Assembly: GCF_009914755.1 (NCBI RefSeq)
Contig: NC_060926.1
From: the human T2T-CHM13v2.0 reference genome, Homo sapiens
Length of the DNA stretch: 64,000 nucleotides
Reading direction: 5' to 3' (one strand)
Shown: positions 2,934-8,647 of the stretch, one piece after another
Numbering within the stretch: position 1 is the first letter of the stretch
Layout: every line of letters starts with the position of its first letter
Made by a program: the position numbers and the translations under genes
The notes under the pieces: model-generated
What the model was told of the DNA's origin: nothing
What the model saw: only the letters and a program-made list of their open reading frames with translations
Database searches by the model: none

Positions 2934-5479
2934 AATGTGAACAACTTTTTTTTTTTTTTTTACAATGGCCCTGCCTCCCACAGCTTTCTTTCTTTCAGTT
3001 TTAGATGCAAAACAAAAAAATTTAAAGGAAAATGTGACTTCAAAGGAAAGGAACAAATTTCCAAAGACTTGGGGGAGGGAATGCAGAGCCTGGTGTGGAT
3101 GGACAAGGTCTGCAGACGGAGGGCAGAGGTGGTGGAAGGGGCCAGGGACCTGCAGGCCTCCCCCTGGAACTGGGACTGGTCTCCGTCTGCTAACGTCAAG
3201 GTCAGCTCCCCCGTGGAGCTGACTTCAACAGCCATGCCAGCCCAGCCTAGCTCTCAGTAGGTTTGGCCGTTCATGCTGAAAAATAAATATTAAAGCCTGT
3301 CCCCTGTCTATTGCCTCCCCCAACTGCATAGACGCCAGCCTCTAGGCCTGAGAGGTGGAAACACTGGCCACCAGCCCGGCAGCCCCTACAGGCCCCCCAG
3401 ATAGGCTGCCTCAGTCCTCCTCTGAGAGCTGTAGATCCTCCAGCTCATCCTCTGGCCCCTGGGCCAGCCGCTGCAGCTCCCCAGGGGCCAGCCCCGCCTC
3501 TGCGTCTGGGTCTCCATCCTCCGAGTTGCTGCTGTCCTCCTCGCCCTCCTCCTCGTCCTCTTTATCCTCTTCCACCCCACGCCGAGTGCTCAGGGGCCCC
3601 AGTATCCCTCTTTCCAAGAATCCCTCGGTGTCGTCCTCTTCACAGCTGTTCAGGTCAAAGAGGTCTTTAAATTGCTTCCTGTCCTCATCCTTCCTGTCAG
3701 CCACCTTCCTTCGTTTGATCTCAGGAAAGTTCAGGTCTTCCAGCCGCTCTTTGCCACTGATCTCCAGCTGGATCTCCCAGTCACGCAGCTTGCACCAGTG
3801 GCTGTAGTACAAGGTCAGGGGGGTCCCCTCTTCCAGGGTCAGCTTCTGCCAGGCTTCCACTGCCTGCTGGTCAGAGACGCCGAAGGAAACCCTCTGGCGG
3901 CGGCTGCAGATGTGTTCCGAGTTCTCCTGAACCTTCCCAAGCAGCTGCTGCACCTGCCGGCAGTAGTTGGCCACCTTGCACTCCCGGAGGAACGACTTCA
4001 GCCGCAGGACCACAGGCAGCGCCAGCTCCGGGAAGCCGATGCAGTGTGCCTGGCTGTGCAGGTACTCCAGGGTGAGGTCGTACAGCTGCTCCACCAGGCC
4101 GTCCTGGTACGCCTTCTCCTGCAGGTTGACACTGGACAGCTTCAGGATCACGGAGAAGTTGATGGGCTTGGAGCTCATGCGCCCCGGCTTCCTGCTGAAG
4201 TCGACCTGCTGGAACATCTCCAGGATGAAAGGCAGCACTGGGATGAAGGCCCCCGAGCTCCCCGAGAGCAGCGTCAGGGCACGGATGCAGTGCATTCGCA
4301 GTGGGTAGAAGCGGGCAGTGGGGATAAGCTTGATACAGCCAATGATGACATGGGCAAGGGAGTAGAACAAGGGTTGGAGGGCTTCGCTGGGGCCCACAGT
4401 GCTCAGGACCCGGCACCACAGGAAGAGGCAGTGCACGTACTGCCAGTTGTACACAGACGTTTCCTTCTTGCGGGTGGTCATGGCATTGTGCAGGTGTATG
4501 GCGAGCTGGCGGATGTAGAGGAAGGCGTGCTGGTAGGCCACACCCGGCTCCAAGGCCAGCAGCTCCCTCAGGGTCCGCTGCATGAAACTGATGAAGGGGA
4601 GGGCACCAGGCGAGGTGAACTTGCAGTTCCTCACATACATGATGTACATTTGCTTGAGGACGGGGCCAAGGAAAGTGTCCTTCTTGTGCCGGCAGACTCT
4701 GCTGAGGACCAGGAAAGCCAGCACCCGCAGGGACTCCTCCCCTGTGCTCCATACGACCACCATTCTCTTAAGCAGCATACGGCACTGCTTGGGGAAGGTC
4801 AGGAAGCAGGGCACTAGCACGCTGATGTGCCACAGCACGGCCGCCAACACCATCGTCTCTGCCACACAGGACACTAGCTGTATGACCGAGCCCAGGTACG
4901 CCTTGATGTCCACATGGAGCTTCCCCCAGAGCCGGCTGCTGGACGGCTGCAGCATCCTGCTGCTGTCCTTTGCCGCCTTTCCAAACAGCAGCTTCTGGAG
5001 ACAGCCAATAAGGTCTCTGATGCAGAAGGTGACCAGAGCATTGAACACAGCACTGTCCCTGACCTGGAATTTGTTGGCCTCAGCACTTTCCTGGTCCCCT
5101 TGGGTGGTGGCCACAGCTGCTCCGAATGCCTGTACCACTTCATGGAACAGCTTTGGAGTGAGGTGTTGCTTTGCTGCCTGCTTCCATCTCTCAACCATGG
5201 CGAGGGTCACAGGAACACAATTCTTCCCCTTCAGCCCTCTGGGGACTCTGTCCCCATCTTCCCCCTCCTCCGCTCCATCCTCATCCTCACTGGCTTCCTC
5301 CAGCACATCTGGCAGGGAGTTGAACGGCTCCTCTTCCTCCTCAGAGCTGAGTCACTGAAGTTTAGCTGGCTCTGGTCATTCTCCTGCAGGAACTTGTAGA
5401 ACTCGGGGTCTCTGTCCTTCAGCCGAGAGAGCTGATCTTTGTGCTCAGAGGCACAGCCTTTACGCCGGCTGGCCAAGGA

Positions 5480-6480
5480 GCTCCCGCCCGGCTCATCCGG
5501 ACTCCGGGCAGCCTCGCGTGCCTCCCGCGTCTCCGCTTCTGGAGAGTATTCGGACTTAGAGTCAAAGCCCGAAGCTAGGAACTCGTCCACCGTCAGCTCC
5601 GCCAGGCGCCTCCTGCGGCGCCGCGCTCCTGCCATGATACCAGCCTGCAGCTTGCGGCCCACTTCCGGCCCCAGAATGCCGCGCGGCTGCACACTTCCGT
5701 CGCCCAGGCCCCGCCCCGTTCCCCGCCCCGCCGCGCCATGCCCAGCCGAGTAGCTTTACGGTTCTCCCACCGCAGCGCCCGTGGCCTCCGGGCGGGATGG
5801 CGCGTTCGCGTGCTCGGTGCGGGCAGCCCCGGTGGGGCCCAGATGCGCCTCCCGCTCGGCGCCTGGCTTCGTAGGACGCGGCGACGCCGGTGTCCGTCCT
5901 GGGGAAGAGAAACCAGGAGTCCCGCCGCGCCCGCAGCCCACCCGGCGTTCCGAGGGCAAGCGCCTGCGAGGATGCCAGGCTGCGATGGCGGGGCCCCTAT
6001 GCAAAGAGCTCCCACAAATCAACAATAAAAAGCAGAGGGTCCAGTAGAAAGCGCGAATGGCGGTGGGAACCGCACTGATGTTGCCAGCTCGACAGAAGAC
6101 GGGCGACCCGAGAGCCAGGCTGGCTTTGCCTCCGATCCGCAGAGACCAGGCCAGCGCCACGAACACCACGCAGGGCGCTCCCCGTCCATGGCCCTCTGGG
6201 TGCGGACGGCGGCTCTTCCGCGGCCCTTCCCGGGGACGCCGCATGGGGCGAATGCGGTGGGGAGGCCAGCGCCTTCCTTCCTGCTACCAGCCTGACACCC
6301 GGGCCCCCGGGCCTGGACAGCCAGACCCCGCGACAGGGTCGCCCCGGGGCGCAGGCGTGGATCCCCCAGACCTGGCGCTGAAGGGGCACGTGAGGCGGAC
6401 GCAGGCAGAGTGGCCTCAGGGTCCCATTCGGCCTCTTGGTGCTGCGGTGCCCCGTGGCTCCCCAGAGGAGAGCAAGTTAG
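5480..6480. promoter_or_regulatory. CpG island / promoter-like segment inside the NOC2L retrocopy
   Basis: Very high GC and CpG density. ETS-type ACTTCCG motifs at ~5661 and ~5693. GC boxes CCCCGCCCC at ~5709 and ~5721, just upstream of the minus-strand ATG. Confidence 0.75.
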
Positions 6481-6500
6481 GGGGTCGGGGGAGCGGGGAT

Positions 6501-6880
6501 GGCTTCCGGGGGAGGAGGAGGGCGAGGCCTAGGGGGCTTCTCGGAGGAGGAGGAGGGCGAGGCTTAGGGGGCTTCCCGGGGGAGGAGGAGGGCGAGGCCT
6601 GGGGGGCTTCTCGGAGGAGGAGGAGGGCGAGGCCTGGGGGGGCTTCCTGGAGGAGGAGGAAGGCGAGGCCTAGGTGGGGCTTCTCAGAGGAGAACGGCAA
6701 AGGCCTGGGGGGCTTCCCGGAGGAGAAGGCGAGGCCTAGGGGGGCTTCCCGGAGGAGGAGGAGGGCTAGGCCTGAGGGGGGAGCTTCCCGGAGGAGGAGG
6801 AGGGCTAGGCCTGGGGGCGGGGCTTCCCAGAGGAAGAGGATGGCGGGGCCAGGGGGGCTTCTCGGAGGAGGAGGCAGACC
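6501..6880. repeat. G-rich minisatellite, about 11 imperfect copies of a ~35-bp unit (GGGGGCTTCYCGGAGGAGGAGGAGGGCGAGGCCT)
   Basis: Tandem units are directly visible in the sequence. Confidence 0.9.
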
Positions 6881-8647
6881 CGGGGCGCAGCGCTGGAAGG
6901 ATCCGCGTCCAAGGTCTAGTCCCCGAAGCCTGTCGGGAGGCCGGGCGGGCGGTGCCGAGCCAATGTGAACAACTCTTGCAGTCACTTTTCTTGGAAATGG
7001 GAAGCTTAAAATTGGGTAGGAGCTGAGAAAGATACAGGTTCAAGAGAGGGCTTTTTTAAGATGGAGGTATGTGTTATAAATGAGGGATTAAGTACCCCTT
7101 GTGGAGTCCTTAAGGAACCTTCCAATAGGCTGTGGAGATGACACTGGGAAGGCATATGAATAAAGGATTTACTGTACTCACAGATTCCAAAGAGGGAGGC
7201 ACGACATACCTTGTGGGGATCACCTGGGCAGAGCACCAACAAAGCGGGCTCAGCCAAGCAGGTGGGGAGCCAAGGGCAAACAGGTTCCTGTGGACAGTTG
7301 CCCTTATTGGGCATCAGGGTGGGGTTCACCAGCAAAGGCAGGAGGGGATATCATGGGTGTGCTTAAATGTCACTAGGCCATGGTCGGGAGAGTAAGAAGG
7401 GGGACTTGTGACAGGGACCAGCCTTGTCACATTGGTGTACCTGGTCATCTGGGAAAGGTGCCCACAGCTTGTTTGTGGAGATACTGAGGAATCAGGAAAA
7501 TGGGAAGTTTTTAGAGGTTGCAATTCAAGATGTTATGGTACATCATTTTTCTTGGCAATGACTCATTAAAAAAGAAGAAAAAACTAATGAGGCAGGAATG
7601 GAAATAATTCCAGGAGCAAAGTCCTTTAGGAGGAGTGGGGAACAGGATCCAGTGCAAAGTGGGGGGTTGGCCCTAGGAGCCAGGGAAAGCCGAGTGCATG
7701 GAGACAGATGTCTGTGCCTGCTGCATTTTGTAGAATGATCCATTCTGATTTCTCCTGTATCAAAATTGAAGCCTTCAGCTGAGAGTGAGAAGCAGAGAGG
7801 AAATGTTGAGGTTTGAAGAAGAGAAGAATACGGAACGGTCATCTAGGAGGATGGGCAAGCAAGGAGACCAGAACTGGCAGGCAGCGCAAGGGCTGCTGAA
7901 CAGCCCGAGCAGTGAAGTGGCTGAAATAGGAACATCAGGTGTCTCTGGTGATTATTTCTTTTTTGTAGTTTTCTGATTTTCCAGATGTTCCCTAATAGGC
8001 ATATCTTACTTCCACAGTTATCCTTTTTTAGACTGTTACAGAGGGGTGAAAAATAGAACATATAATGTAGGAGAGAGGACTTAGGATTTGGGGAGGTGAG
8101 TGGGGAAACAGAAAGAGATAGAAGACCTCATTCTGTTTGCCTGTAAAAACAATGCCTGCAATAGATGAAAAGTCCAGTTTTCTGCAGACATGTACAAAAT
8201 GTTTTTGACCTTTTATTCAGGCCAACAGATTTACTCCATTTCTAGGTCTGAGCCACCAATTGGGTTTCTTCGTTGAGTCTGAGTGTTTGATAGGCCAAGT
8301 GGTGGAAACTGTTCCCAAGTTCTGAAACTAGGGGAGCCTCCATTCTGGGCTCTGCAGTGGTGAGGTGCACTCTCATCCCTGCCACATTTTAGTGGGAAGC
8401 CTGGTGAGGCTCATTCAGGGACTATGAAAACATCTCTTACACCAGAACCTCACTAATCTTGTAAAGTTTGCTTATTTGTTAAAATGATTAAAAGTAAACA
8501 TTAGAAGTTGAGGTCCTTGATATCTGTTTTCAGAGTGTCTTAGCCACTCTCTATTTGTCTTAATAGATTTGCCTGATTTTTTTTAAAATTTCAAATCAAG
8601 GTCACTGTTGTGAAAGGGAATTTCAGAGATAATACATTGTTATGAAG

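What the first reader, a model, noticed from the sequence alone, without database searches (positions are those of the whole stretch)
2934..6974. NOC2L retrocopy that appears to have retrotransposed together with its parental CpG-island promoter
Seen: the 13-bp duplication AATGTGAACAACT flanks the poly(A) end (2934-2946) and recurs at 6962-6974, about 1.3 kb upstream of the ATG (5635). L2-like host sequence resumes on both sides. The ETS and GC-box-rich CpG island and the VNTR are therefore inside one ~4-kb L1-mediated insertion. Known: NOC2L lies head-to-head with KLHL17 across a short CpG-island interval on 1p36.33, and retrocopies normally lose their promoter. Inference: the template RNA began far upstream, probably as divergent transcription from the KLHL17 side, and read through the NOC2L promoter. 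The copy would then have been born with a possibly bidirectional promoter.
Basis: partly seen in the sequence, partly recalled or inferred. Interest (0 to 1): 0.85.

Follow-up and report, generated by a model that had tools for sequence, protein, structure and literature searches.

The report
NOC2L retrocopy carrying its parental promoter
A processed copy of the human NOC2L gene on chromosome 2 was made from an unusually long RNA that began next to the neighbouring KLHL17 gene, so the copy brought along the whole 1.3-kb CpG-island promoter region, a rare but already known way for a retrocopy to be born with a promoter.

Summary
The 13-mer AATGTGAACAACT occurs exactly twice in the window, at 2934-2946 and 6962-6974. 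It brackets a 4.0-kb insert made of a 15-nt poly(A) tail, NOC2L with all 18 introns removed, and 1.3 kb that is collinear with the chr1 DNA upstream of NOC2L exon 1 at 88% identity.

Homology stops 2 nt from the 5' repeat, at chr1:389347. That is 137 bp before the KLHL17 start codon on the other strand.

An old chr7 paralogue of the flanks, about 86% identical, is an exact empty site with one copy of the 13-mer. An inverted chr2 duplicate carries the same insert and the same repeats.

The carried region is still a CpG island, with observed/expected CpG of 0.85 against 0.94 in the parent. In this copy, however, CpGs are decaying at the same rate as in the gene body. A preprint reports the island methylated after implantation.

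Promoter inheritance by retrocopies is a known mechanism (Okamura and Nakai 2008; Carelli et al. 2016). This is a large, clean and apparently undescribed example. Promoter activity was not testable here.

The parts
2934..2946 (.). Target-site duplication, copy next to the poly(A) tail. It was probably 14-16 bp originally, and the following C has been lost in this copy.
   Evidence: Exact 13-mer found twice in the window. The paralogue reads AACTC followed by 20 T. The chr7 empty site has a single copy.
2947..2961 (-). Poly(A) tail of the retrocopy, seen as 15 T on the + strand. It is not templated in the parental gene.
   Evidence: Sequence read directly. The chr1 + strand just before 372950 is not T-rich.
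2962..5609 (-). NOC2L exons 19 to 2, joined without introns. The 3'UTR is 2962-3410 and the CDS runs from 3411.
   Evidence: 18 collinear blocks against chr1:372950-387866. Canonical CT..AC boundaries (GT..AG on the gene strand) were found by script for 16 of 18 introns and by eye for the other 2.
3411..5351 (-). A 646-codon open frame matching NOC2L residues 102-749. It is cut off from the ATG by a 4-bp deletion.
   Evidence: ORF listing. The best solved-structure match is PDB 8fkv, 'Nucleolar complex protein 2 homolog', at E=0. Indel list.
5610..5664 (-). Equivalent of NOC2L exon 1, with the ATG at 5635-5633. The 5' end of RefSeq NR_002826.2 is annotated at 5664.
   Evidence: The exon 2/exon 1 junction has the 133-bp intron 1 removed. 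The ATG aligns with the parental ATG. The annotation comes from the hub table.
5665..6500 (-). Carried NOC2L proximal promoter and the non-repeat part of the CpG island. It holds two CTTCCG (ETS-type) cores and two CCCCGCCCC boxes at 5660-5730, conserved in both chr2 copies and in the parent.
   Evidence: Contiguous alignment to chr1:388055-388879. G+C is 0.715 and CpG observed/expected is 0.85.
6501..6874 (.). 35-bp VNTR with 10.5 copies, copied from the parental intergenic VNTR.
   Evidence: Tandem Repeats Finder on the window, on the parent at chr1:388880-389262 (36 bp, 10.5 copies) and on the paralogue (9.3 copies).
6875..6959 (-). Distal end of the insert, corresponding to the DNA just upstream of KLHL17 on chr1. 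It is the 5' end of the retrotransposed RNA.
   Evidence: Alignment ends at chr1:389347, 137 bp before the KLHL17 ATG at chr1:389484.
6960..6961 (-). Two nucleotides matching neither the parent nor the target site. They read CC here and CG in the paralogue, so on the sense strand a G abuts the first templated base.
   Evidence: Three-way alignment and the chr7 empty site.
6962..6974 (.). Target-site duplication, copy on the 5' side.

Best explanation
Window 2947-6961 is one L1-mediated (target-primed) retrotransposition of a single spliced, polyadenylated NOC2L RNA.

Shown. That RNA's copied 5' end lies about 1.32 kb upstream of the NOC2L ATG, at chr1:389347, only 137 bp from the KLHL17 ATG on the opposite strand. 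The cDNA therefore contains the whole NOC2L-KLHL17 intergenic CpG island. This includes the NOC2L core promoter in its native orientation, the 35-bp VNTR and the KLHL17-proximal upstream DNA. It inserted into a chr2 sequence whose older chr7 paralogue remains empty, and it was later duplicated in inverted orientation within 2q21.

Inferred, about 0.6. The RNA was a rare 5'-extended NOC2L transcript that initiated as the upstream antisense partner of the KLHL17 promoter and ran through the NOC2L promoter into exon 1.

Inferred, about 0.5. The copy was transcriptionally competent at birth from the inherited promoter. Today the island behaves as a developmentally methylated CpG island, and in this copy it is beginning to decay.

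The confidence given (0.88) is for the shown structural part.
For: - Hallmarks of a processed copy: 18 of 18 introns are absent. The 15-nt poly(A) is untemplated in the parent. An exact 13-bp repeat flanks the insert.
- Single collinear block: window 5609-6959 aligns to chr1:387999-389347 at 88.35% over 1365 columns. It runs without a break from exon 1 into upstream DNA and ends 2 nt from the repeat.
- Gene identities: the retrocopy frame matches PDB 8fkv NOC2L at E=0. The chr1 + strand gene beyond the end point has BACK and Kelch domains, and its best PDB match is 6hrl KLHL17 at 1.9e-98. An ORF beginning MQPRSERPAGR starts at chr1:389484.
- Empty site: chr7:38123071-38124959 matches both flanks at about 86% identity, with one copy of AATGTGAATAACT and no insert.
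- The paralogue at chr2:130661980-130666028 has the same insert and the same repeats.
- On the sense strand an extra G abuts the first templated base in both copies. From recalled knowledge, this is what reverse transcription of a cap produces.
- CpG-island status: G+C is 0.715 and observed/expected CpG is 0.85, against 0.91 in the paralogue and 0.94 in the parent. The gene body shows 0.42-0.51.
- On the shared stem and in the paralogue, promoter CpGs were lost at about the background rate (ratios 1.3 and 1.2). Body CpGs were lost at 5.6 to 14 times background.
- RefSeq places the pseudogene transcript's 5' end at 5664, inside the carried sequence (hub table).
- NOC2LP2 RNA was reported in placenta by RNA-seq and qRT-PCR (PMC12749014, passages).
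Against: - No CAGE, chromatin or primate-outgroup data could be consulted. Promoter activity and the true RNA start are therefore not shown.
- The first templated base is a C preceded by T on the sense strand. From recall, that is not the usual pyrimidine-purine initiator. Two-nucleotide fillers also arise at 5' junctions without a cap.
- The nick site implied by the repeat (TCTT/GC, or AACT/CT) matches the L1 endonuclease consensus TTTT/AA (recalled) only loosely.
- In the window copy, 13 of 91 promoter CpGs were lost since the chr2 duplication, 11 of them as TG/CA. That resembles its body (15 of 81) and exceeds the paralogue (4 of 82, Fisher p=0.043). This suggests germline methylation of this copy.
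- A preprint figure legend describes the NOC2LP2 island as highly methylated after implantation.
- Overall CpG retention in the promoter versus the body does not differ significantly for this copy (82/111 vs 75/115, p=0.19). The insert is too young for CpG decay to be decisive.
- No + strand transcript is annotated to the right of 6975 (hub table), so there is no evidence of bidirectional activity.
Confidence: 0.88

Rival explanations
1. The structure is the same, but the RNA began still further upstream, for example as antisense transcription from inside KLHL17. On this view the cDNA was 5'-truncated by chance near the KLHL17 start, so the end point says nothing about a divergent KLHL17-promoter start site.
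For: 5' truncation is common in L1-mediated copies (recalled). The first templated base is not a typical initiator, and the 2-nt filler is not specific to caps.
Against: The end falls 137 bp from the KLHL17 ATG. From my recollection of the RefSeq 5'UTR length, that is about 27 bp from the KLHL17 start site, which is where divergent initiation is expected. A sense-strand G abuts the copy in both paralogues.
Confidence: 0.25
2. The promoter is only a structural passenger. The carried island was silenced at or soon after insertion and has never driven meaningful transcription, and the annotated 'transcribed pseudogene' reflects cross-mapping or read-through.
For: Body-like CpG loss in this copy's promoter (13/91 vs 15/81). 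High methylation after implantation is reported for the NOC2LP2 island. Codon changes look close to neutral, with synonymous:nonsynonymous counts of 10:16, 6:14 and 23:37 against an expected ratio of about 0.30:0.67.
Against: - Observed/expected CpG is still 0.85-0.91.
- CpG loss was at background rate on the stem and in the paralogue.
- Low methylation before implantation.
- The RefSeq transcript's 5' end lies inside the carried promoter (hub table).
- RNA was detected with gene-specific qRT-PCR.
- No frameshift is shared by the two chr2 copies.
Confidence: 0.35
3. The upstream 1.3 kb reached chr2 by a DNA-level event, either a segmental copy of the chr1 promoter or gene conversion from the parent into an ordinary retrocopy, and not on the RNA.
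For: None found. The locus does lie in duplication-rich 2q21.
Against: - Intron 1 is absent, while exon 1 and the upstream DNA form one unbroken block.
- Homology ends 2 nt from the repeat.
- The chr7 empty site lacks body and promoter together and keeps exactly one repeat copy.
- Gene conversion would need homology beyond the 5' end, and there is none.
Confidence: 0.02
4. The 13-bp repeat is a chance match and the true insertion boundary lies elsewhere.
For: 1 of 100 shuffles of the window gave 2 matches when one mismatch was allowed.
Against: Both copies sit exactly at the two ends of the chr1 homology. Both are conserved in the paralogue. They collapse to one copy in the chr7 empty site.
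Confidence: 0.01

Closest known systems
Retrogenes with promoters inherited from the source gene (Okamura and Nakai 2008, Mol Biol Evol, PMC2386082, passages read; category I, 17 of 29 pairs)
   Same: The RNA started upstream of the main start site of a CpG-island gene, so the core promoter was transcribed, reverse-transcribed and integrated together with the exons.
   Different: In the passages read, the carried promoter was attributed to scatter of start sites within the gene's own promoter, and a core of about 50 bp is mentioned for PABPC3. Here 1.3 kb is carried: the entire intergenic island, a VNTR and the neighbouring gene's proximal upstream DNA. The start appears to belong to the neighbour's promoter. 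NOC2L is not mentioned in that paper (0 occurrences).
'Parental promoter inheritance' class of expressed retrocopies (Carelli et al. 2016, Genome Res, PMC4772013, passages read)
   Same: The sequence upstream of the retrocopy's transcript start aligns to the parental locus. The explanation given there is a parental transcript from an upstream alternative promoter.
   Different: That study found only 6 human and 7 mouse cases, about 3% of robustly expressed retrocopies. That class is defined with CAGE-supported start sites, which I could not check.
PPP1R26P1 retrocopy in RB1 intron 2 (abstract of PMC4537222 as listed)
   Same: A processed pseudogene brought a CpG island to a new locus. The island acts as a promoter there and is subject to developmental or germline methylation.
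   Different: At RB1 the island became an imprinted differentially methylated region that drives an alternative host transcript. Here the island is the parental promoter itself, no host gene is involved, and no imprinting is known.
Tandem-repeat CpG-island promoters ('TR-CGIs'; bioRxiv 10.1101/2024.01.17.576070; abstract, section 12 and passages read)
   Same: NOC2LP2 and NOC2L are both named there among CpG-island promoters with imperfect tandem repeats. The NOC2LP2 island shows low methylation before implantation and high methylation after.
   Different: The preprint's main text contains no word beginning 'retro'. It does not say that the NOC2LP2 island is an RNA-mediated copy of the NOC2L island. 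This report supplies that origin.

Membership tests
L1-mediated processed retrocopy (processed pseudogene) | All parental introns precisely removed | tested here: met
   19 collinear blocks with 18 introns missing. Canonical boundaries were found by script for 16 and by inspection for 2.
L1-mediated processed retrocopy (processed pseudogene) | 3' poly(A) tail at the parental polyadenylation site, not templated in the parent | tested here: met
   15 T at 2947-2961. The parental DNA beyond chr1:372950 is not T-rich.
L1-mediated processed retrocopy (processed pseudogene) | Target-site duplication flanking the whole insert | tested here: met
   Exact 13 bp, probably 14-16 bp, at both ends of the homology in both chr2 copies.
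L1-mediated processed retrocopy (processed pseudogene) | Empty pre-insertion site with one copy of the duplicated target | tested here: met
   The chr7 paralogue at about 86% identity carries the single copy AATGTGAATAACT. It is a paralogue; no orthologous outgroup was available.
L1-mediated processed retrocopy (processed pseudogene) | Nick site resembling the L1 endonuclease consensus TTTT/AA (recalled) | tested here: inconclusive
   The implied nick is TCTT/GC if the duplication is 16 bp, or AACT/CT if it is 13 bp. The 5' side is T-rich but the 3' side is atypical.
Retrocopy with inherited parental promoter | DNA upstream of the retrocopy's transcript start is homologous to DNA upstream of the parental start and lies inside the insertion | tested here: met
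   Window 5665-6959 aligns to chr1:388055-389347, inside the repeats. The annotated 5' end at 5664 comes from the hub table.
Retrocopy with inherited parental promoter | Transcription actually initiates from the carried promoter (CAGE, H3K4me3) | not testable with these tools
   There are only indirect pointers: the RefSeq model NR_002826.2, qRT-PCR detection in placenta and methylation dynamics.
CpG island (Gardiner-Garden and Frommer type criteria, recalled) | Length over 200-500 bp, G+C over 0.5-0.55, observed/expected CpG over 0.6-0.65 | tested here: met
   For 5665-6500: 836 bp, G+C 0.715, observed/expected 0.85. For the whole 5665-6961: 0.72.
Bidirectional promoter at the new locus | Divergent transcripts arising from the carried island on both strands | tested here: not met
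   No + strand gene or transcript is annotated between 6975 and 21449 (hub table). Transcript data were not available, so this rests on the absence of annotation only.

The most novel reading that the evidence does not exclude
The retrocopy was born as a self-sufficient gene, with a complete CpG-island promoter and an intact 749-codon NOC2L frame. It stayed free of frameshifts and stop codons until the 2q21 inverted duplication. The only indels shared by both chr2 copies are in-frame (12 bp and 6 bp), and each copy later acquired its own frameshifts. On this reading it served for a time as an expressed NOC2L retrogene. Its island still acts as a promoter restricted to germline, early embryo or placenta, and the KLHL17-derived half may fire outward into chr2 DNA.
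Probability: 0.15. Interest if true: 0.6.

Novelty: new member of a known kind. Interest (0 to 1): 0.45.

Why it matters
**Annotation.** RefSeq's NOC2LP2 model ends at 5664, but the insertion runs to 6961. The adjacent island and VNTR are therefore part of the retrocopy and are not local chr2 sequence.

**Scale.** The case shows how large an inherited promoter can be. A whole 1.3-kb head-to-head intergenic island was carried, apparently because transcription began at the neighbour's divergent promoter.

**Natural experiment.** The same CpG island with the same tandem repeat now sits in three chromosomal contexts: chr1 and two chr2 copies. Comparing their methylation and activity asks whether island behaviour is set by sequence or by surroundings. 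The preprint's report that the NOC2LP2 island becomes methylated after implantation, and the faster CpG loss in one chr2 copy than in the other, suggest that context matters.

**Origin of tandem-repeat islands.** At least one such island arose by RNA-mediated copying.

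Tried and rejected
- Supplementary tables of Carelli et al. 2016 were closed. I cannot say whether NOC2LP2 is one of their six human promoter-inheriting retrocopies.
- Literature searches for NOC2L with 'retrocopy' and with 'processed pseudogene' each returned 0 papers. 'NOC2LP1' returned one unrelated paper, seen as a listing only. A search combining retrocopies, bidirectional promoter, upstream antisense and retrotransposed gave nothing specific.
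- The first automatic splice-boundary search failed for introns 5 and 9. These were resolved by eye. My first spliced parent carried a 1-nt error that gave a false 592-codon frame, corrected to 745 codons. The remaining 4 codons against the 749-residue PDB chain are explained by an acceptor 12 nt further upstream at intron 9. That explanation is inferred and was not re-run.
- Test for protein-level constraint: the synonymous:nonsynonymous counts and the absence of in-register stops are compatible with neutrality. About 2.6 stops would be expected, giving P(0) of about 0.07 by my arithmetic. I therefore did not claim selection.
- The chr11 hit to the VNTR (73% over 167 bases) is an unrelated G+C-rich repeat and was dropped.
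- No other full-length NOC2L retrocopy appeared among the 10 candidates scored. The tool states that such counts are lower bounds.
- The bacterial promoter/terminator scanner, RNA-family, structure-prediction and complex tools were not used because they do not bear on this question.

Full report
**1. The observation**

The 13-mer AATGTGAACAACT occurs exactly at 2934-2946 and 6962-6974. It occurs nowhere else in the window, even with one mismatch allowed (2 matches; shuffles gave a mean of 0.15). The first copy is followed by 15 T, which is poly(A) on the minus strand. The interval between the copies is G+C-rich, reaching 62-78% from 5600 to 6900. It holds a 35-bp tandem repeat at 6501-6874 with 10.5 copies.

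**2. What lies between the repeats**

The window's own assembly, T2T human, could be searched; contig numbers and lengths agree with the chromosome numbers given by the hub.

- Window 2962-5611 aligns block by block to chr1:372950-387868 in 18 pieces at 87-99% identity.
- The gaps between the blocks on chr1 are introns with CT..AC boundaries on the + strand, which is GT..AG on the gene strand. A script found these for 16 of 18 introns and inspection found the other two.
- The nineteenth block is the important one. Window 5609-6959 aligns in a single piece to chr1:387999-389347, at 88.35% over 1365 columns. An independent search gave 89% over bases 1-1295 of the 1297 searched.
- This block begins in exon 1, with the 133-bp intron 1 removed at its lower edge. 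It runs without interruption through 1.3 kb of upstream DNA.
- The longest retrocopy frame (3411-5351, minus strand, 646 codons) matches human NOC2L residues 102-749 in PDB 8fkv at E=0.
- The poly(A) is not templated. The parental + strand just before chr1:372950 is not T-rich.

**3. Where the copy ends on chr1**

In a three-way alignment of the window, its chr2 paralogue and chr1, homology stops at chr1:389347. Two nucleotides follow that match neither the parent nor the target: CC in the window and CG in the paralogue. Then the repeat begins.

On chr1 the + strand beyond that point carries an ORF beginning MQPRSERPAGR, with its ATG at chr1:389484, 137 bp away. Downstream + strand frames contain BACK and Kelch domains. 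Their best solved-structure match is 6hrl, Kelch-like protein 17, at E=1.9e-98.

NOC2L and KLHL17 are thus head to head, with their ATGs about 1.46 kb apart. This figure is my count. The retrocopy contains essentially the whole interval. From recall only, the RefSeq KLHL17 5'UTR is about 110 nt, which would place the copy's end about 27 bp from the KLHL17 start site.

The parental interval already contains the VNTR, at chr1:388880-389262 with 36-bp units and 10.5 copies. The repeat was therefore copied through RNA and did not arise on chr2.

**4. Empty site and later history**

Searching the genome with 1 kb of each flank found three places: the window, a chr2 paralogue at 98% identity, and chr7:38123071-38124959 at 85%. 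On chr7 the two flank matches are separated by exactly 13 bp. The sequence there reads ...AAATGTTG-AATGTGAATAACT-CTTGCAAG..., a single copy of the target with no insert. The chr7 similarity extends over at least window 1-10496 in five blocks at 85-87% identity. It is therefore an old duplicated segment and not a dispersed repeat.

The chr2 paralogue, at chr2:130661980-130666028 in inverted orientation, is about 96% identical across flanks and insert. It keeps both 13-mers. Its tail reads AACTC followed by 20 T, which implies an original duplication of 14-16 bp.

The order of events is:

1. The chr7/chr2 split.
2. The NOC2L insertion.
3. The inverted 2q21 duplication.

Divergence values agree with this order:

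| Comparison | Gene body | Upstream, non-repeat part |
|---|---|---|
| Retrocopy vs parent | 4.4-5.0% | 8.5-8.6% |
| Between the two chr2 copies | 2.6% | 4.2% |

With recalled primate substitution rates, I estimate the insertion at roughly 20-35 million years. I could not test this against other primates.

**5. Mechanism**

Several facts fit one target-primed reverse transcription of one RNA: a repeat that brackets body and promoter together, an empty site lacking both, the absence of intron 1 next to unbroken upstream DNA, and homology ending 2 nt from the repeat. They exclude a DNA-level copy or gene conversion.

The RNA was a spliced, polyadenylated NOC2L transcript with a 1.3-kb 5' extension. 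Its copied 5' end sits where divergent (upstream antisense) initiation from the KLHL17 promoter would be expected. On the sense strand a G abuts the first templated base in both copies, which is what copying of a cap produces (recalled). I give this start-site reading about 0.6.

Three points count against it:

- The first templated base is C after T, which is not a typical initiator (recalled).
- Short fillers at 5' junctions occur for other reasons.
- 5' truncation of a longer RNA cannot be excluded.

The implied nick site (TCTT/GC or AACT/CT) fits the L1 consensus only loosely.

**6. Is the carried promoter alive?**

By sequence it is still a CpG island. The non-repeat part, 5665-6500, has G+C of 0.715 and observed/expected CpG of 0.85. 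The corresponding values are 0.91 in the paralogue and 0.94 in the parent, while the gene bodies show 0.42-0.51. The two CTTCCG cores and two CCCCGCCCC boxes at 5660-5730 are intact in all three sequences.

CpG losses were polarised with the three sequences. The ratio column compares CpG loss with twice the non-CpG substitution rate.

| Region | Lineage | CpGs lost | Ratio |
|---|---|---|---|
| Body | Window copy | 15 of 81 | about 13 |
| Body | Paralogue | 9 of 75 | about 14 |
| Promoter | Shared stem plus parent lineage | 16 of 111 | 1.3 |
| Promoter | Paralogue | 4 of 82 | 1.2 |
| Promoter | Window copy | 13 of 91 (11 as TG/CA) | 5.7 |

The window copy's promoter loss is not different from its body (p=0.54). 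It is higher than the paralogue's promoter loss (p=0.043).

These numbers are small. Overall retention in promoter versus body is not significant for this copy (82/111 vs 75/115, p=0.19). I read them as follows: the island was protected from germline methylation for most of its history, and this particular copy has begun to decay.

Published data point the same way. A preprint on tandem-repeat CpG-island promoters uses NOC2LP2 as its example of low methylation in preimplantation stages and high methylation after implantation (Fig. 5B legend and section 12). A placental study lists NOC2LP2 among RNA-seq hits confirmed by qRT-PCR (passages). RefSeq annotates a transcript whose 5' end (5664) lies within the carried promoter.

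None of this is a direct demonstration of initiation. No + strand transcript is annotated to the right of the insert, so bidirectional activity has no support.

**7. Coding state**

Relative to the parental CDS:

- The window copy has a 4-bp deletion at CDS nt 299, which shifts the frame, and a 3-bp deletion at nt 431.
- The paralogue has an 18-bp insertion, a 10-bp deletion and a 5-bp deletion, so its frame is shifted twice.
- The only shared indels are in-frame, 12 bp and 6 bp.
- Neither copy has a stop codon in the parental register.

Codon changes, as synonymous:nonsynonymous, are 10:16 for the window copy, 6:14 for the paralogue and 23:37 shared. Neutral expectation is about 0.30:0.67, with 0.03 giving stops. 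This is compatible with neutral drift. The lack of any shared frameshift is the only hint that the frame may have been kept for a while, and I treat that as the bold reading only.

**8. Comparison with what is known**

Promoter inheritance by retrocopies is established.

- Okamura and Nakai (2008) aligned promoters between source and retrogene in 17 of 29 pairs. They attributed this to scattered start sites in CpG islands (passages).
- Carelli et al. (2016) found parent-derived upstream sequence for 6 human and 7 mouse robustly expressed retrocopies, about 3% (passages).

This locus belongs to that kind. It differs in degree and detail: 1.3 kb, a whole head-to-head intergenic island with a VNTR, and a start apparently borrowed from the neighbour's promoter.

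I found no paper linking NOC2L with 'retrocopy' or 'processed pseudogene' (0 papers each). The preprint that discusses the NOC2LP2 island contains no word beginning 'retro'.

**9. Verdict**

The structural interpretation is supported at about 0.9. The start-site inference is plausible at about 0.6. Promoter function is open. The finding is a new and unusually complete member of a known kind, of moderate interest.

Noticed in passing
window 1-10496 vs chr7:38122258-38127000 (L010): At least 10 kb of this 2q21 window is an old paralogue (85-87% identity, five blocks) of chr7 at about 38.12 Mb. This is far more diverged than the 96-98% chr2/chr2 duplicate. I fetched only 6 kb of chr7, so the full extent is unknown.
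   Followed up: partly
window 771-2053: A 1.28-kb stretch is present in chr2 but absent from the chr7 paralogue. The chr7 blocks on either side are only 37 bp apart. Part of it has strongly positive GC skew. It may be another insertion, but it was not identified.
   Followed up: no
window 4459-4464 (minus strand; junction between the blocks at chr1:380912 and chr1:381197): Both chr2 copies carry 6 nt (CGTTTC on the + strand) at the junction between the 9th and 10th exon blocks counted from the 3' end. The parent appears to use an acceptor 12 nt further upstream, which would account for 749 rather than 745 residues. The copies therefore seem to have a shared 6-bp in-frame deletion there. The explanation is inferred.
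   Followed up: partly
window 2931-2961: The RefSeq model NR_002826.2 extends to 2931. That is through the genomic poly(A) run and the 13-bp target duplication, into flanking DNA. Its 3' end is therefore probably not a real transcript end.
   Followed up: no
L002 / chr2:130661980-130666028: The paralogous copy has an 18-bp tandem duplication in the coding part (L002 3388-3423; the 18-bp insertion at CDS nt 624). Its CpG island is better preserved than the window's, with observed/expected CpG of 0.91 and only 4 of 82 CpGs lost.
   Followed up: partly
window 5800-5870 and 5990-6035: Two stretches of the carried upstream region are identical or nearly so in the parent and both chr2 copies. They are about 70 bp of G+C-rich sequence and an A+T-rich piece reading ...CAAATCAACAATAAAAAGCAG.... 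Their surroundings differ by 8-9%. They could be conserved regulatory elements or chance.
   Followed up: no
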